Shown: piece after piece, positions 3,419 through 45,642 of the stretch
Layout: every line of letters starts with the position of its first letter
Position numbering within the stretch: the first letter of the stretch is position 1
DNA from: Escherichia phage LH01
Strand: one strand, 5' to 3'
Sequence record: PP434429
DNA: 64,000 bases
Translations under genes and position numbers: made by a program
The notes under the pieces: generated by a model
What the model saw: the letters and a program-made list of their open reading frames with translations, nothing else
Databases searched by the model: none
What the model was told of the DNA's origin: nothing

Positions 3419-3493
3419 GTAATTTTCCTCATTATCATTAATCTGGAGGATTTCTCCTCCATAATCATACTACATTAAACGTAAAGCTTTGTC

Positions 3494-4180
3494 TTAGAAG
3501 TCGTGAGTAGAATCGGCTTCCATTGCAATAACATAACTTACTTGAGAGCTTTCAAACTTGGCTGCAACTTTATCACCAGCTCCCCACAACATTACTTTAT
3601 AGTTACCTGGCTGGATTTTCATATTAGCCATATTGATTACGAAGTTAAAGTTGTTAGAACCGTCATAATCGGTAAGAGTCAAAGAATACTTAGGACGAGT
3701 TAGTCCAGAATCTTCAACTTTATTGTAACCATTGATAACAATTTTACCATCTTTATTTGTAATAGCAATTGTATCAATCTGGAGACCACGTGAAACTCGA
3801 AGCAATTGTTGAAGGTCTTCAGCTTTAATTTCAGTAATCACAGAAGCCACTGGGAATTGAATTGGCTTATTAGGAAAAACAATGGTGCTCTTGTCGGCAG
3901 CAGGCCAATAAACTGTGGAACGTGTATCTGCAATTTTAATATTGCCATCAGTGTGCATTGAAATTTCAGCATCATCAGACACTAGACTCAAAATGCTTAA
4001 GAAGCTATTCAAATCATAAAGTGCTACGTCAAAATCAATTTCATCAGAGATATTTGCTTCCGCATAAGTGGTGCCATTAACTGCACGGGTCATAATAAAT
4101 TTACCTTGACTCAGCAGAATACCGGAGTTAATAGAGGCAAAGTTTTTCAGAATAGCGATAGTATCTTTAGACAGTTTCAT
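3494..4180 (-). CDS. 45: Sliding clamp gp45
   Basis: Start moved to the internal ATG (MKLSKDTIAILKNFASINSGI...) by homology to T4 gp45 and an AGGAAA SD; the ORF-track start at 4195 is 5 codons upstream. Confidence 0.9.
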   Translation of the reverse strand: MKLSKDTIAILKNFASINSGILLSQGKFIMTRAVNGTTYAEANISDEIDFDVALYDLNSFLSILSLVSDDAEISMHTDGNIKIADTRSTVYWPAADKSTIVFPNKPIQFPVASVITEIKAEDLQQLLRVSRGLQIDTIAITNKDGKIVINGYNKVEDSGLTRPKYSLTLTDYDGSNNFNFVINMANMKIQPGNYKVMLWGAGDKVAAKFESSQVSYVIAMEADSTHDF

Positions 4181-4894: not shown

Positions 4895-6583
4895 TTATGA
4901 AACAGTCATCACAGTAAATCGTCCAACTTTGCTCATTTGAAGATGTTGTCCATAAGCTTGTGGGTCATGGTCTCTGTGACTAATTATAAACACGTTTGCA
5001 TCGGTTAGAGAGTTAAGAATTGTTGAAATAGCTTTAATACCTTCAGAATCAGTCGCGGAATCCATGACTTCGTCCATAATTAATGTATTGATTCTAACAC
5101 CAGAGACCTTTTCAGCAATATCTCGCCATGTAAACAACAATGCGATATCGATACGTGCCTTTTCACCTTGACTAAATGAAGCATAACTGAACTCTTCACG
5201 GCCACGTGATTTTATAGATTCATTGAATTCTTCATCAATAGAAAACACGTAATCAGCTTCCATGATTTTAAGGTAATGGTTAATCTGCTTGTTGAACAGA
5301 GGCACATATTTTTTAATGATAGCACCTTTAATACCAGAATCTTTTAACATATCTGTTATAATACCACGATGGTATTTTTCAAGAACGATATCCGATTTTG
5401 TTTTAATGATTTTATCAAGTTCTTTTTGAAGCAAAGCTATCTCATCGGCATGGTCGATAAATTCCGCCGAGGCTTGTTCTATTGCAGCTTTAACTTTCTT
5501 AGCTTTATCAATAGTGGCAATCATTGCTTGTTTCTTGGTACGAATATCAGATGCAAGGTCCTGTTTAGTCTTAACATTAGCTCTATATTCGTCCACTAGG
5601 ACACTCAGATTATCTCTGTGACAGGTAAGTTGCTCGAATGAGTGATTACATTCATGAAGCTTATCGGTAATCTTAGAGACAATAGGGTCACCCTGGTGCA
5701 ACTGTGATGCGCAAGTAGGACATGTACCGCCATCATGATACATCTTAATAACTTTGTTATATGAGTCGATTTTAGATTTAATCAAGAATGCTTCTTGTCC
5801 GATCTTGTTGAATGCCTCAGTAGGGTCTTCGTCAAGAACGATATTAAGTAGACGCTCATTAGCTTCTTCAATTTCTGCTTTTAATGAACGAGCTTCTTTG
5901 GCTAGGTCGTCATACATATTCTGTAGACGTGCTACATTATCGCCAGATAATTTCTTTTGGCGTTCGATATTCTCGTTATAAATCTTAATTTGTTGGATAA
6001 TACCATCTTTCTTGGCATCGAGAACTTGCCCCTGGGAATTAAGTTCTCGAACTTGAGACTTATTGATTTTATCCATTTCAGCGAGTGTGCCGACTTCTAA
6101 AAGGTCTTCGACAAGTTTTCTACGAGCAGGGGTGCTAAGAGCCATGAAAGGGGTATACCCTGCCGTCCCAAGCACAACGATCTGTTTAAAAGACGCGTAT
6201 GACATTCCGATGCTACGTTCAAATTCTTCTTGGAAGTCACGACTGCTGGCAGATTCATCAAGACGAACACCGTCAACGGAGATTTCGAAAATATTGGGCT
6301 TTTGGCCACGTTTAATGAAGTATTTTTTATCATCGAATTCCATCCAAAGCTCAACTAAGAGCTCTTTCTTGTTCGTGCTATTAATGATTTGTCCTTTCTT
6401 AACATCACGAAATGGTTTACCGAAAAGTCCGAAAGTAATGGCTTCTAACATCGTAGATTTACCACCACCATTTTTACCAGTGATTAATGTCTTTTGGACT
6501 TTATCTAATTGGATATCAATAGGATTCCCACCTACCGACATGATGTTTTGATAACGAACACGATTTAATTTAAATGATTTCAT
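4895..6583 (-). CDS. 46: Recombination endonuclease subunit gp46 (Rad50/SbcC-like ATPase)
   Basis: 562 aa; Walker A GKNGGGKST near N-terminus, long central coiled coil, C-terminal ABC signature region; T4 gp46 is ~560 aa. Confidence 0.9.
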   Translation of the reverse strand: MKSFKLNRVRYQNIMSVGGNPIDIQLDKVQKTLITGKNGGGKSTMLEAITFGLFGKPFRDVKKGQIINSTNKKELLVELWMEFDDKKYFIKRGQKPNIFEISVDGVRLDESASSRDFQEEFERSIGMSYASFKQIVVLGTAGYTPFMALSTPARRKLVEDLLEVGTLAEMDKINKSQVRELNSQGQVLDAKKDGIIQQIKIYNENIERQKKLSGDNVARLQNMYDDLAKEARSLKAEIEEANERLLNIVLDEDPTEAFNKIGQEAFLIKSKIDSYNKVIKMYHDGGTCPTCASQLHQGDPIVSKITDKLHECNHSFEQLTCHRDNLSVLVDEYRANVKTKQDLASDIRTKKQAMIATIDKAKKVKAAIEQASAEFIDHADEIALLQKELDKIIKTKSDIVLEKYHRGIITDMLKDSGIKGAIIKKYVPLFNKQINHYLKIMEADYVFSIDEEFNESIKSRGREEFSYASFSQGEKARIDIALLFTWRDIAEKVSGVRINTLIMDEVMDSATDSEGIKAISTILNSLTDANVFIISHRDHDPQAYGQHLQMSKVGRFTVMTVS

Positions 6584-32186: not shown

Positions 32187-32516
32187 TTATACTCTAGGCT
32201 TTTGAGCTTGTTTGGTATTGGATTCCCATGTGGCTTTGGTAATTTTGTTAGCGGCATAACCAAAGGCATTAGATAGAACACCTTTAGAGTTGAATACATC
32301 CAATCCAATAAGTACACCGGCTGTGTTAAATTTAGGAGCAAAGTACGCATTAGTTTTAGAAAGAGCTTTTTTCAATTCAGGGTCTTGAACCAAGCCATCA
32401 AAAACGCCTTTACTATTTACTTTATATGTTACTTTGGGATTTTTACCTTCTTCGATAGCAGCTTTCTGTTCCGCAGATAATGTAACTTCAGTGATAAACT
32501 CCTGATATGTTTTCAT
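32187..32516 (-). CDS. Internal-protein-like (capsid-targeting N-terminus MKTYQEFITE)
   Basis: 109 aa; the first 10 residues match the T4 capsid targeting sequence shared by IPI/IPII/IPIII/Alt (MKTYQEFIAE); Lys-rich. Confidence 0.6.
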   Translation of the reverse strand: MKTYQEFITEVTLSAEQKAAIEEGKNPKVTYKVNSKGVFDGLVQDPELKKALSKTNAYFAPKFNTAGVLIGLDVFNSKGVLSNAFGYAANKITKATWESNTKQAQKPRV

Positions 32517-32524
32517 TTTGTTCC

Positions 32525-32938
32525 TTAGTAAATTGATTTACCATAGTATTTGTACCAAGTCGGACGTTGAGCAATTTTTTCATCTAAGCGTGCTTGACTT
32601 ATCGCAATGGACGCTTCGGACGGGACATAATTATTACGAAATTCGGCAGGGATGTCGGAAATATCCTGGACTGTCGTGTCCTTGATTTTGAAACCACGTT
32701 TCAAACATTCAGCGATTAGCTCGATTTGACGTAAACGTAAAAATTCGAGTTTGTCGTAAAAGAATGTTACGTGACCTGTGCCTAAGATAAATGTTGGAGA
32801 GATTTTAAAATCCTTTACACGTTTACCGTTTTGAACATGTTTACGGACTGCACCAAATACGCGTGGTAATTCACGATACTCAGCCATAAGATGTTGGTCG
32901 GACAGTTCAGAAACAAGTGTTAAATTGATACGAGTCAT
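32525..32938 (-). CDS. denV: Endonuclease V (pyrimidine-dimer DNA glycosylase)
   Basis: Start at [12 protein letters not shown]; near-identical to T4 endo V ([45 protein letters not shown]...). Confidence 0.9.
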
Positions 32939-32952
32939 AATTTCCTCCAAGT

Positions 32953-32996
32953 AGTTGATGAATGTATAGTATCAAAACCCTTGGAGGAAGTAAACA
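32953..32996 (-). promoter_or_regulatory. Early-promoter-like cassette upstream of denV
   Basis: Plus strand gttgatgaatgtatagtatcaaaacccttggaggaagtaaacac; minus strand GTTTAC...TATAC-type. Coordinates approximate. Confidence 0.35.
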
Positions 32997-33293
32997 CTAT
33001 TTTTCTGAAGCGCCTGAAATATATTTTTCAAGACGTTGTTTCATCAGCGAGCCGTTCTTAGCGATTTCTTCTGGTTTATCGCACATACGCAACAAGGCTT
33101 CAAGCTTAGCGATATCGCTGGTACGTTCAAATTTGCGAGTATCTATCTTACTAGCAAGTTCAGAAATACGTGCTAATAGACTTTCAGCTTCAACCAAAGC
33201 TGCACCTAGCTTAGTTGCAAATGTGTCAGTAGCTTCGTTAAGAATAGATTCTGATAAAAATTCACTATATGTTTTCATATATACGCTTTCCAA
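32997..33293 (-). CDS. Internal-protein-like (N-terminus [10 protein letters not shown])
   Basis: 98 aa; capsid-targeting-sequence-like N-terminus; helical charged body. Confidence 0.55.
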
Positions 33294-35963: not shown

Positions 35964-35984
35964 AATATTCTCCTCATGTTTTAA

Positions 35985-36025
35985 TAGGACTACTATAACA
36001 TAGTCCTATCAGTTTGTACACTTAT
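35985..36025 (-). promoter_or_regulatory. Early-promoter-like palindromic cassette (ATAGGACTA...TAGTCCTAT around TATAGT)
   Basis: Plus strand taggactactataacatagtcctatcagtttgtacac; same family as 25903, 37548, 44222 and 44548. Coordinates approximate. Confidence 0.4.
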
Positions 36026-36240: not shown

Positions 36241-36250
36241 TCATTTGTTT

Positions 36251-36292
36251 TGATAGGTCTATAGTATCAACAACTACAGACCTTGTAAACTG
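36251..36292 (-). promoter_or_regulatory. Early-promoter-like palindromic cassette
   Basis: Plus strand tgataggtctatagtatcaacaactacagaccttgtaaac; minus strand GTTTAC...TATAGA. Coordinates approximate. Confidence 0.4.
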
Positions 36293-37539: not shown

Positions 37540-37547
37540 TTGTTTTG

Positions 37548-37586
37548 ATAGGACTACTATAACATAGCCCTATCTTGTTGTAAACT
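37548..37586 (-). promoter_or_regulatory. Early-promoter-like palindromic cassette
   Basis: Plus strand gataggactactataacatagccctatcttgttgtaaac. Coordinates approximate. Confidence 0.4.
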
Positions 37587-37589
37587 GTT

Positions 37590-41242: not shown

Positions 41243-41863
41243 TTACTTACGAGTTTTTGCATACTGAGCAGCGTCAGCAGCCAAACGACCTGCTTGTCGA
41301 AGTTTTTCTTTAATCTCATCATGAAGTGGTTGAGTATACTTCAAACCTTCGATAGTCAAATAAAGACGATAAAGGTCTGGGGTATCAAGGTTGTTGATAT
41401 GTTGGCCATTACGAAGACTATTGAATTCACGAACGAGTGAAGATGTATCAGATTCAATATCACGAACAAGCGAAGATAGTTGTTTATATTTTTTTTCCAG
41501 GCTAGAAGTATCAAACTTAAGAGCAGGAGCTTTAGGAGTTGCTTTTACTTCAGGCTTAGGCTCAGGTTTTGCTTTAGGGGTAGCAGGTTTAGGAATGGTA
41601 GGAGCAGGTTTTACTTTAGGCGAACCAGATTTAGCAGAAACACCACCACTAACAATATCTTTGAATGCTTTAGAAGCTCTGTAATATTCTTTTTGGCTGG
41701 AAGTGTCGATACCGTACATGGCTTGAACGTTTTTGAAAAACTCTGTACTAGTTTTTGTACCAGAAATAGCATCGTAAGCAGCTTGCCATTTCTCTTTTGT
41801 CATACGTACACCGGCTTCGGTGATTACTTCCGTTTCGGCTAAAAATTCATTAAAAGTATACAT
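41243..41863 (-). CDS. Internal-protein-like (IPIII-like size; N-terminus MYTFNEFLAETEV; Pro/Lys-rich linker)
   Basis: 206 aa; capsid-targeting-sequence-like N-terminus; central PKVKPAPTIPKPATPKAKPEPKPEVKATPKAP low-complexity segment. Confidence 0.55.
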   Translation of the reverse strand: MYTFNEFLAETEVITEAGVRMTKEKWQAAYDAISGTKTSTEFFKNVQAMYGIDTSSQKEYYRASKAFKDIVSGGVSAKSGSPKVKPAPTIPKPATPKAKPEPKPEVKATPKAPALKFDTSSLEKKYKQLSSLVRDIESDTSSLVREFNSLRNGQHINNLDTPDLYRLYLTIEGLKYTQPLHDEIKEKLRQAGRLAADAAQYAKTRK

Positions 41864-41907
41864 TGATGGTCCTTAGAAAGTAGGTTTATTGTTTACTATA
41901 TTTATAC

Positions 41908-41936
41908 AAAAAAGCCCCAACCTTTCGGAAGGGGCT
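41908..41936 (-). terminator. Intrinsic terminator closing the tRNA/small-RNA transcription unit
   Basis: Minus strand AGCCCCUUCCGAAAGGUUGGGGCU followed by UUUUUUG. Coordinates approximate. Confidence 0.55.
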
Positions 41937-41939
41937 ATA

Positions 41940-42238
41940 TACCTTGTCGGGGTTTCCACCTACTAGGTAAGTGTTTGTACGAAACGCCGGGATTCGAACC
42001 CGGTTATTAAGCAGTTGACGCTACTCAATATTTTTAAAAGGCCATATCTCTACCATATCCGAACGTCCCGTCAAAAACGCTACTCGGCTTATGGCAAAGA
42101 TATTTCCTCGAATCGATAATTCTGTGCGCCGTTTCTGCTGTGATGTAAGGGGATATTAACGAATCATAAAGATTTATTAAGACCAGTCCTTACTCAGGGA
42201 ACATCAGTCCGACGACTTGCCGGTAGCGACCCGGCTTC
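41940..42238 (-). ncRNA. Candidate stable RNA region with a tRNA-like T-arm (possible equivalent of T4 stable RNAs C/D, or a degenerate tRNA)
   Basis: No ORF of 60 aa or more; contains a canonical T-arm CCGGG-UUCGAAU-CCCGG with a 7-bp acceptor-like pairing (CGGGACG/CGUUUCG) about 91 nt apart, but no clean cloverleaf could be drawn by hand. Confidence 0.3.
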
Positions 42239-44192: not shown

Positions 44193-44221
44193 TTTATTCT
44201 CCATTTACTCATTTGATTTGA

Positions 44222-44262
44222 TAGGACTACTATAACATAGTCCTATCAGCATGTAAACTATT
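44222..44262 (-). promoter_or_regulatory. Early-promoter-like palindromic cassette (GTTTAC-N18-TATAGT)
   Basis: Plus strand gataggactactataacatagtcctatcagcatgtaaac; identical core to the cassette at 44548. Confidence 0.45.
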
Positions 44263-44524
44263 AAATACCAGCTTCGCGTTTAACATAATCGACGTAAGCT
44301 TGGATAGCTTTCTTGCTGGTAATTTTTACCTGGCCGCGTCCATTGCCTTCTTTAGAGTTTTTCTTAACAACTACGTTACCATCTTTAACACCCCATACAT
44401 GGACGTAAGTACCGATGTTTCGGTCGTAAAACATTGCATGGTCGTTGTTGTAAGAGAATGATTCATAGTTCTCTGACAGAGTAGAAGATTGAGATTCAGC
44501 GATAAATTCTTTATAGGTTTTCAT
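44261..44524 (-). CDS. Internal-protein-like (N-terminus MKTYKEFIAE; IPI-like size)
   Basis: 87 aa; N-terminus matches the T4 capsid targeting sequence at 9 of 10 positions. Confidence 0.55.
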   Translation of the reverse strand: MKTYKEFIAESQSSTLSENYESFSYNNDHAMFYDRNIGTYVHVWGVKDGNVVVKKNSKEGNGRGQVKITSKKAIQAYVDYVKREAGI

Positions 44525-44547
44525 TTGTTTTTCCGTTTGGTTGTTGA

Positions 44548-44590
44548 TTTGATAGGACTACTATAACATAGTCCTATCAGCATGTAAACT
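44548..44590 (-). promoter_or_regulatory. Early-promoter-like palindromic cassette (GTTTAC-N18-TATAGT)
   Basis: Plus strand tgataggactactataacatagtcctatcagcatgtaaac. Confidence 0.45.
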
Positions 44591-44592
44591 AC

Positions 44593-44880
44593 TTACAGAA
44601 GAGTTTTTGCAATAATTTTAAGCTGAGCTACAGAAATATGCTTAGCTTTAAACAGTGCAGTCTCTTCGGCCGGAGAGATAACAACAGTAGCGCCATCTTT
44701 CTTAGCAGACCATCCGTCCCCTAAGTAAACAGTACCTTTTACTTCTTCACCGTCAACCAGACTAATCATCGGTTTACCCTCACGTCCTTTATTTGCTTTA
44801 ATAACTTCGGAAGTAAGGGTCGCTTCGGTCAGAGTAGAAACGTTAGCATCAGGTGATATAAATTCTTTATAGGTTTTCAT
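44593..44880 (-). CDS. Internal-protein-like (N-terminus MKTYKEFISP)
   Basis: 95 aa; capsid-targeting-sequence-like N-terminus; tandem with 44261..44524. Confidence 0.55.
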   Translation of the reverse strand: MKTYKEFISPDANVSTLTEATLTSEVIKANKGREGKPMISLVDGEEVKGTVYLGDGWSAKKDGATVVISPAEETALFKAKHISVAQLKIIAKTLL

Positions 44881-44887
44881 TTTATTT

Positions 44888-44935
44888 CCTTGAGGTCGTT
44901 TATTTGATAGGATGATAGTAACACGCCATCATCCT
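44888..44935 (-). promoter_or_regulatory. Early-promoter-like palindromic cassette (variant arms GATAGGATGATAG...)
   Basis: Plus strand tgataggatgatagtaacacgccatcatccttatgtaaac. Confidence 0.4.
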
Positions 44936-44955
44936 TATGTAAACTGTTTTGTAAA

Positions 44956-45642
<687 letters not shown>

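What the first reader, a model, noticed from the sequence alone, without database searches (positions are those of the whole stretch)
32187..33293. Five genes with a T4-type capsid-targeting N-terminus spread over three loci
Genes 32187..32516 (MKTYQEFITE), 32997..33293 ([10 protein letters not shown]), 41243..41863 (MYTFNEFLAE), 44261..44524 (MKTYKEFIAE) and 44593..44880 (MKTYKEFISP) begin with the ~10-residue sequence that in T4 directs IPI, IPII, IPIII and Alt into the prohead. Their bodies are unrelated to one another. They are therefore candidate injected proteins; in T4, IPI counters a host restriction system. The 206-aa member has a Pro/Lys-rich linker.
Basis: partly seen in the sequence, partly recalled or inferred. 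Interest (0 to 1): 0.55.

Follow-up and report, generated by a model that had tools for sequence, protein, structure and literature searches.

The report
Five capsid-targeted internal protein genes
This RB69-like T-even phage carries five genes whose products bear the known tag that loads proteins into the phage head for injection with the DNA; the principle is textbook, but three of the five families are unannotated, and one of those has been found in virions.

Summary
The window is a Mosigvirus (RB69-like) genome segment. Exactly five minus-strand ORFs start with the T4 capsid targeting sequence (CTS): 8e-5 expected by chance, five seen. With the CTS removed, their bodies show no similarity to each other. 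One correction: gene 2 starts at ATG 33278 (93 aa), not 33293.

- 44593-44880 is the IPI orthologue. It matches Pfam IPI_T4, and residues 20-95 are 71/76 identical to PDB 2JUB.
- 32997-33278 is Ip5-like.
- 32187-32516, 44261-44524 and 41243-41863 belong to families annotated only as hypothetical.

The 206-aa protein sits at a third locus, next to rnaC and the tRNAs. It is the only one with a late promoter. It is conserved with its CTS across at least six genera. Its 204/206-identical orthologue was one of only five proteins detected by MS in purified Mosigvirus virions.

The 87-aa protein is an IPI-type leader fused to a body that occurs without a CTS elsewhere in Dhakavirus genomes. It is flanked by two identical 48-nt promoter/stem-loop (PeSL) repeats.

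Polymorphic CTS-tagged internal proteins have been known since 1994. Ip1-3 and Bas37_0260 are type IV restriction inhibitors. These are therefore new members of a known kind.

The parts
32187..32516 (-). W1: 109-aa CTS protein (MKTYQEFITE|V). Orthologue of RB69ORF123c, lying immediately downstream of denV. Mature form about 99 aa, pI 9.7.
   Evidence: 97% identical to RB69p123; phrog_3966, unknown function; 90 phage records, all 'hypothetical'; Dhakavirus AnYang ORF054 is a 36% homologue with a CTS at the same position.
32997..33278 (-). W2: 93-aa CTS protein ([10 protein letters not shown]|SILNE|A). Ip5-like internal head protein. Its ATG overlaps the lysozyme (e) stop.
   Evidence: ATGA overlap; phrog_3499 'internal head protein', 2e-46; RB69p127; 48% identical over residues 1-84 to ip5 of T2 and RB32; 496 records.
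32943..32996 (-). Early-promoter/stem-loop between W2 and denV: GTTTAC...TACTAT inside the inverted repeat TTCCTCCAAG/CTTGGAGGAA. It probably drives denV and W1.
   Evidence: families D4, D5; sequence read directly.
41243..41863 (-). W3: 206-aa CTS protein (MYTFNEFLAE|TEVITE|AG). Helical N-domain 20-72, disordered Pro/Ala/Lys linker 74-111, three-helix C-domain 120-204. Mature pI 9.7. This is the third locus.
   Evidence: phrog_2280, unknown; CTS conserved across the family; orthologue MAR005P1_00015, 204/206 identical, 'confirmed structural protein by MS'.
41899..41906 (-). T4-type late promoter TATAAATA, 36-43 nt upstream of the W3 ATG.
   Evidence: The same or a one-mismatch box sits at the same distance in W3 homologues of other genera.
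41913..41936 (-). Hairpin AGCCCCTTCC-GAAA-GGTTGGGGCT followed by a T-run. Terminator-like, lying between rnaC and the W3 late promoter.
   Evidence: read directly. Identical in vB_Eco_mar005P1.
44261..44524 (-). W4: 87-aa CTS protein with an IPI-type 18-residue leader (MKTYKEFIAE|SQSSTLSE|N) fused to a body whose Dhakavirus homologue has no CTS.
   Evidence: (phrog_13302 profile starts at residue 16).
44593..44880 (-). W5: ipI orthologue. 95-aa precursor with a 19-residue propeptide ending LTE|A and a 76-aa mature IPI*.
   Evidence: PF11634, 168 bits against a cutoff of 25, residues 20-95; 87% to T4, 98% to RB69; 2JUB_A 1-76 aligned to 20-95, 71/76 identical.
44213..44260 (-). PeSL (early promoter TTTACA-N17-TATAGT inside a stem-loop) downstream of W4. 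100% identical to the copy at 44544-44591.
   Evidence: (family D1).
44544..44591 (-). PeSL upstream of W4. Together with 44213-44260 it brackets W4 as a cassette.
44899..44946 (-). PeSL upstream of ipI (TTTACA-N17-TACTAT inside the stem GGATGATRG). Same architecture as upstream of T4 ipI.

Best explanation
The window comes from a Mosigvirus (RB69-like T-even phage). The five genes encode internal proteins (IPs).

Mechanism. The first ~10 residues, M-K/Y-T-Y/F-x-E-F-I/L-x-E, form the capsid targeting sequence (CTS). It binds the scaffolding core, so the protein is built into the prohead. The head protease gp21 then cuts after the Glu of an L/I-x-E motif and frees the mature protein inside the head. 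The predicted cuts are:
- W1: after residue 10.
- W2: after 10 and/or 15.
- W3: after 10 and/or 16.
- W4: after 10 and/or 18.
- W5: after 19.
The mature, mostly basic proteins are packaged with the DNA and injected with it. They therefore act before any phage gene is expressed.

Identities.
- W5 is IPI, the inhibitor of the GmrSD type IV restriction enzyme.
- W2 is an Ip5 homologue.
- W1 and W4 are further, unannotated IPs. Their most likely role is as specific inhibitors of modification-dependent (type IV) nucleases or other first-response defences. In this genus those nucleases would act on arabinosylated cytosine DNA.
- W3 is a different kind of member. It is larger, late-transcribed, conserved across genera and abundant in virions. 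It most likely fills the IPIII-like niche of a major DNA-associated internal protein. Whether it also has an anti-defence target is open.

Evolution. W4 and W5 at the ipI locus behave as cassettes bounded by PeSL promoter/stem-loops and sharing 5' CTS-coding DNA; W1 and W2 flank a similar promoter/stem-loop at denV. This would explain why close relatives differ in their IP sets. It would also explain how W4 arose: an IPI-type leader fused to a protein that is not CTS-tagged elsewhere.

Shown here: the sequence features, the homologies, the synteny and the cassette structure. Shown by others: W3-orthologue virion presence, IPI function, and CTS and gp21 rules in T4. Inferred: packaging of W1, W2 and W4; the exact cleavage sites; every function other than IPI's.
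For: Phage identity: 97% identical to PECP20 over 15.5 kb and collinear with RB69 and ATK47.

CTS is non-random and exclusive to these five ORFs. CTS identity by codon position is 0.71/0.87/0.53, so the constraint acts on the protein rather than the DNA. Y/F4, F7 and [IL]-x-E are present in all five, matching the mapped determinants and the gp21 L/I-x-E rule (PMC9026906).

W5: Pfam IPI_T4 at 3e-50, and PDB 2JUB aligns exactly to residues 20-95. The propeptide is therefore 19 residues, as in T4. RB69 IPI protects RB69 from GmrSD (PMC6024577).

W2: phrog 'internal head protein' and 48% identity to T2/RB32 ip5.

W3:
- The orthologue MAR005P1_00015 is 204/206 identical and is one of five proteins found by MS in CsCl-purified virions.
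- A late promoter lies 36-43 nt upstream, here and in other genera.
- The CTS-type N-terminus is kept in Winkler-, Kanagawa-, Karam-, Marfa- and Dhakavirus homologues and in nearly all of the 15 representatives found among 1.84 billion proteins.

W4: the 63% homologue in AnYang/IME341 lacks the leader and lies next to gene 52. The leader resembles the IPI propeptide (family D18, 86). Identical 48-nt PeSLs flank the gene.

The locus is polymorphic among near-identical phages.

Functional precedent: Ip1, Ip2 and Ip3 each block a distinct GmrSD (PMC12373910). CTS-bearing Bas37_0260 blocks McrBC (bioRxiv 10.1101/2025.11.20.689424). IPIII without its CTS works from the cytoplasm (PMC9391042).
Against: No direct evidence places W1, W2 or W4 in virions. 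The only Mosigvirus virion proteome found was shallow (five proteins) and did not detect even IPI.

gp21 and the scaffold genes lie outside the window. They were seen only in RB69.

Only W3 has a late promoter. The others have early-type promoters or none of their own. The T4 ip genes show the same pattern.

No structural or sequence link to any known inhibitor exists for W1-W4. The arabinosylation genes lie just outside the window, so the DNA modification is inferred from the genus.
Confidence: 0.8

Rival explanations
1. W3 is not an injected effector. It is a structural or DNA-condensing internal component, or a core/scaffold accessory. It would be targeted by the CTS, held on DNA by its Pro/Ala/Lys-rich basic linker, and needed for head filling or DNA ejection rather than for counter-defence.
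For: Late promoter only. Conserved and syntenic across at least six genera, unlike the hypervariable IPs. Abundant enough to be one of five MS-detected virion proteins. Mature pI 9.7 with a lysine-rich disordered linker. The C-domain is a generic helical bundle.
Against: T4 and other Tequatroviruses lack it: the rnaC-e.8 interval in T4 is an unannotated gap. It therefore cannot be essential to T4-type head assembly. T4 IPIII is also abundant, basic and about 190 aa, yet it is an anti-GmrSD effector. The two roles do not exclude each other.
Confidence: 0.35
2. In W1 and W4 the CTS-like start is only a by-product of cassette recombination through shared promoter, RBS and 5' coding DNA. These proteins act as ordinary early cytoplasmic proteins and are not packaged in useful amounts.
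For: W4 and W5 share 23 identical nucleotides at the 5' end and sit behind similar PeSLs. The 34-nt RBS plus CTS-coding DNA is 97% identical even in Klebsiella Jiaodavirus IP genes. W4's body functions without a CTS in Dhakaviruses. Both genes have early-type promoters.
Against: Third codon positions vary most (0.53 against 0.87 at position 2), so the peptide is under selection. In T4 the first 10 residues suffice to package even foreign proteins, so any protein made with this N-terminus while proheads assemble should be loaded. The W1 homologue in AnYang keeps the CTS at only 36% body identity.
Confidence: 0.1
3. The shared N-termini are coincidental or belong to non-coding ORFs.
For: None beyond the short length of the motif.
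Against: Expectation 8e-5 against five observed. All five have Shine-Dalgarno sequences. All have conserved homologues in many phage genomes and strong PHROG or Pfam family matches.
Confidence: 0.01

Closest known systems
T4 internal protein I (IPI/IPI*; Pfam PF11634; PDB 2JUB), inhibitor of the GmrSD type IV restriction enzyme
   Same: W5 has the same length (95 aa), the same 19-residue propeptide ending (I/L)TE|A, and a mature region 71/76 identical. It occupies the same locus between tRNA.4 and 57B, behind the same kind of PeSL promoter.
   Different: Five substitutions in the mature protein relative to T4 and one relative to RB69. The phage DNA is probably arabinosylated rather than glucosylated (genus-level inference). 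The range of GmrSD variants it blocks may therefore differ.
Polymorphic internal proteins of T-even phages (Repoila et al. 1994; Ip5 of T2 and RB32, Ip7 of K3/RB15/ATK47)
   Same: Unrelated small bodies behind one conserved CTS. Cassette-like replacement at the ipI and ipII/III loci, with flanking promoter repeats. W2 is 48% identical to Ip5.
   Different: W2 lies between e and denV, not at the ipI locus where T2 and RB32 carry ip5. W1 and W4 belong to PHROG families with no IP annotation. W4's body also exists without a CTS.
T4 IPIII (about 193 aa, abundant basic internal protein; inhibitor of GmrSD of ECOR17)
   Same: W3 is of similar size and basic, carries a CTS, and appears abundant in virions. 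Weak similarity extends slightly past the CTS (..KDEW..).
   Different: No homology beyond 25 residues (hhalign probability 27%). Different PHROG (2280 against 5341). Different locus. Late promoter. Two helical domains joined by a Pro/Ala/Lys linker. Conserved in non-Tequatrovirus genera and absent from T4.
Bas37_0260, a CTS-bearing McrBC inhibitor at the ipI locus of a Tequatrovirus
   Same: An unannotated protein recognised by its CTS and shown to be an anti-type-IV-restriction factor. This is the precedent for W1 and W4.
   Different: Relatedness is unknown and probably nil.
PeSL (promoter-early stem-loop) mobile regulatory cassettes of T4-type phages (Arbiol 2010; Comeau 2014)
   Same: TTTACW-N17-TAYWAT promoters embedded in stem-loops. 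They flank variable ORFs and occur as direct repeats able to excise or insert the gene between them.
   Different: None of substance. This is a textbook instance: two 100% identical 48-nt copies around W4.

Membership tests
T4-type CTS-bearing internal proteins | N-terminal capsid targeting sequence with the mapped targeting determinants (aromatic at position 4, Phe at position 7) | tested here: met
   Y4/F7 in W1, W2, W4 and W5; F4/F7 in W3. PSSM 25-31 bits against -2.7 or lower for every other ORF. Determinants taken from PMC9026906.
T4-type CTS-bearing internal proteins | gp21 processing site L/I-x-E within the 10-19-residue propeptide | tested here: met
   ITE10 (W1); LSE10 and LNE15 (W2); LAE10 and ITE16 (W3); IAE10 and LSE18 (W4); LTE19 (W5). 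The W5 site coincides with residue 1 of the solved mature protein. Actual cleavage was not observed.
T4-type CTS-bearing internal proteins | Prohead protease gp21 and scaffolding core encoded by the same phage | tested here: inconclusive
   Not inside the window, which ends before gene 13 by collinearity with RB69. RB69 encodes genes 67, 68, 21 and 22 at 105.5-107.6 kb. These are core genes of all T4-like phages (established knowledge).
T4-type CTS-bearing internal proteins | Physical presence in purified virions and injection into the host | not testable with these tools
   Literature only. The W3 orthologue (204/206 identical) was detected by MS in virions. IPI is packaged and injected in T4. 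There are no data for W1, W2 or W4.
T4-type CTS-bearing internal proteins | Location in one of the two recognised ip loci (e-denV region; tRNA.4-57B region) | tested here: met
   W2 and W1 flank denV; W5 and W4 lie between 57B and tRNA.4. W3 does not. It lies between rnaC (41978-42116) and the e.8-side ORFs, which is a third locus.
IPI (Pfam PF11634 IPI_T4) | Full-length match to the family model and to the solved IPI* sequence | tested here: met
   W5 only: 168.4 bits against a cutoff of 25, model positions 1-76/76; 2JUB_A at E 8.5e-42. W1-W4 do not match.
IPI (Pfam PF11634 IPI_T4) | Inhibition of GmrSD | not testable with these tools
   Shown for T4 IPI and reported for RB69 IPI. Not tested for this allele.
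T4 IPII / IPIII | Sequence homology of the mature protein | tested here: not met
   T4 IPII is phrog_7857 and IPIII is phrog_5341. No window protein matches either. BLAST without the CTS finds nothing. hhalign of the W3 family against IPIII covers only 25 N-terminal residues.
Ip5 family (phrog_3499) | Homology to ip5 of T2 and RB32 | tested here: met
   W2: phrog_3499 at 2.1e-46 over the full length; 47.6% identity over residues 1-84 to annotated ip5 genes.
PeSL regulatory cassettes | Early-promoter hexamers at 17-nt spacing inside a stem-loop, repeated around variable ORFs | tested here: met
   Six-member repeat family D1. TTTACA-N17-TATAGT or TACTAT. Palindromes read. Consensus taken from PMC4122927.

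The most novel reading that the evidence does not exclude
The CTS acts as a portable injection tag that recombination can graft onto proteins that normally work only after being expressed. The recombination would run through PeSLs and the conserved 5' CTS-coding DNA.

W4 and its untagged Dhakavirus homologue (AnYang ORF188) would be a natural tagged/untagged pair. The W3 family would be a previously unrecognised, genus-spanning, abundant CTS-loaded internal protein at a third ip locus. W1 and W4 would be new inhibitor families aimed at defences that attack arabinosylated-cytosine DNA.
Probability: 0.35. Interest if true: 0.55.

Novelty: new member of a known kind. Interest (0 to 1): 0.35.

Why it matters
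Injected internal proteins are the phage's first line of counter-defence, because they act before transcription starts. In 2025 all three T4 IPs and one further CTS protein were shown to be specific inhibitors of type IV restriction enzymes. Each unannotated CTS-bearing family is therefore a concrete candidate for a new anti-restriction protein with a findable host target.

Mosigviruses carry arabinosylated cytosine DNA, for which no dedicated restriction or anti-restriction pairs beyond IPI are known.

Three practical points follow:
- CTS scanning recovers IPs that annotation pipelines label 'hypothetical'. Here that is three of five.
- The W3 family links an orphan MS-confirmed structural protein to a loading mechanism.
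- The W4/ORF188 pair allows a direct test of what pre-loading adds over early expression.

None of this overturns current understanding.

Tried and rejected
- Chance or ORF artefact: rejected.
- Hidden homology between the bodies: none once the CTS is removed. The weak PHROG cross-hits are CTS-driven.
- W3 as a diverged IPIII: only 25 N-terminal residues align, at 27% probability.
- Solved-structure relatives of W1-W4 by sequence: none.
- AlphaFold model of W4 from a 3-sequence alignment: pLDDT 44.6, unusable, so no fold search was run.
- Homologue searches for W1 and W4 in the 5.8-billion-protein set: only 2 clusters each, too shallow for profiles.
- Late promoters upstream of W1, W2, W4 and W5: none. 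The T4 ip genes also lack a perfect TATAAATA within 400 nt.
- Rfam scan of 30-47 kb: only the two tRNAs.
- Literature searches for RB69ORF123c/149c, and for a deep Mosigvirus virion proteome: nothing found.
- Repoila et al. 1994 itself is not held in the library. Its content is cited through later papers.
- Peptide-level MS data for MAR005P1_00015 are not held, so the processed N-terminus could not be checked.
- Alt as a CTS carrier: rejected on sequence.
Full report
**What the window is.** Megablast of 31-46.5 kb finds 98% coverage at 97% identity in Escherichia phage PECP20, and similar matches in CEV1, ATK47, APCEc01, JK45 and vB_Eco_mar005P1. These are Mosigviruses, the RB69-like members of Tevenvirinae. 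The gene order is that of RB69 and T4: vs.8, denV, e, nudE, e.2-e.6, rnaC, tRNAs, tRNA.2-4, ipI, 57B, 57A, 1, 3. The window starts inside gene 43. The arabinosylation genes of RB69 (gp45-55) and the head genes 20-24 therefore lie just outside it.

**The observation.** All five ORFs are present on the minus strand with the quoted N-termini. Gene 2 needs one correction. Its start is ATG 33278, which overlaps the lysozyme stop codon as ATGA and gives 93 aa. 33293 is an upstream in-frame TTG.
- The motif M[KY]T[YF].EF[ILV] occurs five times in the six-frame translation, always at the first ATG of an ORF.
- It gave 0 hits in 200 shuffles. The analytic expectation is 8e-5 for 196 ORFs.
- A PSSM built from known CTSs separates the five (25-31 bits) from every other N-terminus in 64 kb (-2.7 or lower), so there is no sixth.
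- Across the ten gene pairs, identity in codons 2-10 is 0.71, 0.87 and 0.53 at codon positions 1, 2 and 3. The peptide is what is conserved, not the DNA.
- With residues 1-10 removed, no pair of bodies scores above z = 0.4. 'Unrelated bodies' holds.

**What defines a CTS, and whether these qualify.** The Black-lab work is summarised in PMC9026906. IP propeptides are 10-19 residues long. The first 10 residues of IPIII suffice for packaging. Residues 4 and 7 carry the targeting information, and residues 8 and 10 carry the processing information. gp21 cuts after Glu in L/I-x-E.
- All five proteins have Y/F4 and F7.
- Four have I/L8 and E10.
- W5 has P10 but LTE at 17-19, as T4 IPI has ITE at 17-19.
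- Several have a second site: LNE15 in W2, ITE16 in W3, LSE18 in W4.
- The predicted mature proteins are 69-99 aa (190-196 aa for W3), with pI 6.3-9.7 depending on which site is used.
- T4 Alt begins MELITELFDE and has its own short propeptide.

**Gene by gene.**
- *W5 (44593-44880)* is ipI. Pfam IPI_T4 scores 168 bits on residues 20-95. It is 87% identical to T4 IPI and 98% to RB69 IpI. PDB 2JUB, the 76-residue mature IPI*, aligns end to end with residues 20-95 at 71/76 identity. IPI* inhibits GmrSD and is reported to protect RB69 too.
- *W2 (32997-33278)* falls in phrog_3499, 'internal head protein'. It is 48% identical to the annotated ip5 of T2 and RB32. Here it sits between e and denV.
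- *W1 (32187-32516)* is the orthologue of RB69ORF123c (97%). Its family is phrog_3966, 'unknown function'. It is 'hypothetical' in nearly all of the 90 records. Its 36% homologue in Dhakavirus AnYang also starts MKTYQEFITE and also follows denV.
- *W4 (44261-44524)* is phrog_13302, 'unknown', and the profile begins only at residue 16. The only other cluster in 5.8 billion proteins is a 73-aa Dhakavirus protein (AnYang ORF188 / IME341). It is 63% identical but starts MKTLNINSFF.., has no CTS, and is encoded next to topoisomerase gene 52.
  - W4's first 18 residues, MKTYKEFIAESQSSTLSE, resemble the 19-residue IPI propeptide MKTYKEFISPDANVSTLTE (repeat family D18).
  - The predicted cut after LSE18 would release a protein that matches the untagged homologue almost from its start.
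  - W4 therefore looks like an IPI-type leader grafted onto a pre-existing early protein.
- *W3 (41243-41863)* is phrog_2280, 'unknown', and 'hypothetical' in all 138 phage records.

**The third locus (W3).** W3 lies 114 nt downstream of rnaC, which is at 41978-42116 and 97% identical to T4 rnaC. Between them are a terminator-like hairpin and a perfect late promoter TATAAATA, 36-43 nt before the ATG. No other CTS gene in the window has a late promoter.
- Homologues occupy the same tRNA-proximal position in Winklervirus (CHI14), Kanagawavirus (Kosakonia 305), Marfavirus, Karamvirus (Pet-CM3-4), Erwinia phage COW86c and Dhakavirus.
- Each has TATAAATA or a one-mismatch box at the same distance.
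- Each starts with M-[KLYI]-x-[FY]-[NK]-[ED]-[FI]-[LI]-x-E, and most have a second [ILV]-x-E|[AS] site.
- An exhaustive HMM search of 1.84 billion representatives finds only 15 family members. Nearly all have this leader, and two have a different C-terminal domain.
- RB69ORF149c is a divergent, shorter member with a CTS.
- T4 has only an unannotated gap at this position.

The decisive point comes from vB_Eco_mar005P1. Its orthologue MAR005P1_00015 is 204/206 identical with a 2-aa linker indel, and has the same leader and the same upstream hairpin and promoter. It carries the GenBank note 'confirmed structural protein by MS'. In Michniewski et al. 2019 it is one of only five proteins detected in CsCl-purified virions. 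The other four are tail sheath, prohead core protein, major capsid protein and the Alt-like ADP-ribosyltransferase (Table S5a). That paper does not mention a CTS or internal proteins.

**Cassette structure.** A six-member repeat family (D1) consists of early-type promoters (TTTACA-N17-TATAGT or TACTAT) embedded in stem-loops. These are PeSLs as defined by Arbiol 2010 and Comeau 2014, who link them to the shuffling at the IP locus first seen by Repoila et al. 1994.
- Two 100% identical 48-nt copies bracket W4, and a third copy precedes ipI. T4 ipI, ipII and ipIII have the same kind of upstream element.
- Locus content differs between very close relatives:
  - PECP20: ipI alone.
  - ATK47: Ip1 and Ip7.
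  - RB69: ORF156c and ipI, plus two extra CTS genes after denV.
  - This window: ipI and W4.
- The 34 nt spanning the RBS and first CTS codons are 97% identical even in Klebsiella Jiaodavirus IP genes. This offers a second recombination handle.

**Function.** For IPI the mechanism is established. For the rest it rests on analogy.
- Ip1, Ip2 and Ip3 each inhibit one GmrSD variant, with no cross-protection. The authors predict that the other proteins of 'the two Ip loci' do likewise.
- CTS-bearing Bas37_0260 inhibits McrBC.
- IPIII lacking its CTS works from the cytoplasm.
- RB69-type DNA carries arabosylated 5-hydroxycytosine and is cut by some GmrSD enzymes.

I therefore rate W1, W2 and W4 as probable specific inhibitors of modification-dependent nucleases, at about 0.5 each. 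I rate W3 as a major, late-made, DNA-associated internal protein whose effector role is open.

**Verdict.** The finding is correct and its interpretation is sound, but the phenomenon is well known. Four points go beyond current annotation:
1. Three of the five families are not labelled as IPs in any database examined here.
2. A conserved third ip locus exists, and its product is MS-confirmed in virions but was never linked to a CTS.
3. W4 and its Dhakavirus homologue form a natural tagged/untagged pair.
4. W4 sits in a clean PeSL-bracketed cassette.

New members of a known kind; moderate-to-low surprise; good experimental tractability.

Noticed in passing
window 44957-45412 (minus strand), start codon at 45412-45410: Gene 57B (the anti-CBASS Acb1-type 2H phosphoesterase, annotated as such in phage Mizar) has lost its start codon. 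TAATGAAA in RB69 and PECP20 reads TAACGAAA here (ATG to ACG). The rest of the ORF is intact, with one amino-acid difference. No in-frame ATG, GTG or TTG follows, so the ORF listing does not report the gene.
   Followed up: partly
L004 (RB69 NC_004928) 5145-5204, compared with window 33219-33278: The RB69 copy of W2 (RB69p127) has a -1/+1 compensated frameshift across codons 5-12. [15 protein letters not shown] becomes MKTYMNFYQNLSLNE, which destroys F7, L8 and E10 of the CTS while the body stays 99% identical. This is either a sequencing error in the 2003 record or a natural loss of targeting.
   Followed up: partly
L004 (RB69) 3450-3779: RB69ORF123c, the W1 orthologue, has Ala instead of Glu at CTS position 10 (MKTYQEFIAA). 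By the T4 rules this should block gp21 processing but not packaging.
   Followed up: no
window 35976-36023, 36245-36292, 37540-37587: Three further PeSL copies (63-85% identical to the ipI-locus copies) lie between small ORFs of the e.2-e.3 hyperplastic region. This marks other likely cassette boundaries.
   Followed up: no
window 41978-42116 (minus strand): rnaC (T4 'species 1' stable RNA) is present at 97% identity to T4. It was not reported by the Rfam gathering-threshold scan of 30-47 kb, so it apparently has no Rfam family that it reaches.
   Followed up: partly
window 44858-44891: The 34 nt covering the ipI ribosome-binding site and the first CTS codons match internal-head-protein genes of Klebsiella Jiaodaviruses (JD18 and others) at 97% identity. 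The surrounding DNA is unrelated.
   Followed up: no
L009 (Erwinia phage COW86c) 1309-2142; protein P0025: The annotated start of the W3 homologue is about 64 codons too far upstream (277 aa). The CTS-type Met (MLNFKEFIAE), preceded by a hairpin and TATAAATA, lies at 1501. P0025 shows the same over-extension.
   Followed up: partly
proteins P0028 and P0030: Two W3-family members keep the CTS, N-domain and Pro/Ala/Lys linker but carry unrelated C-terminal domains. The family may therefore be modular.
   Followed up: no
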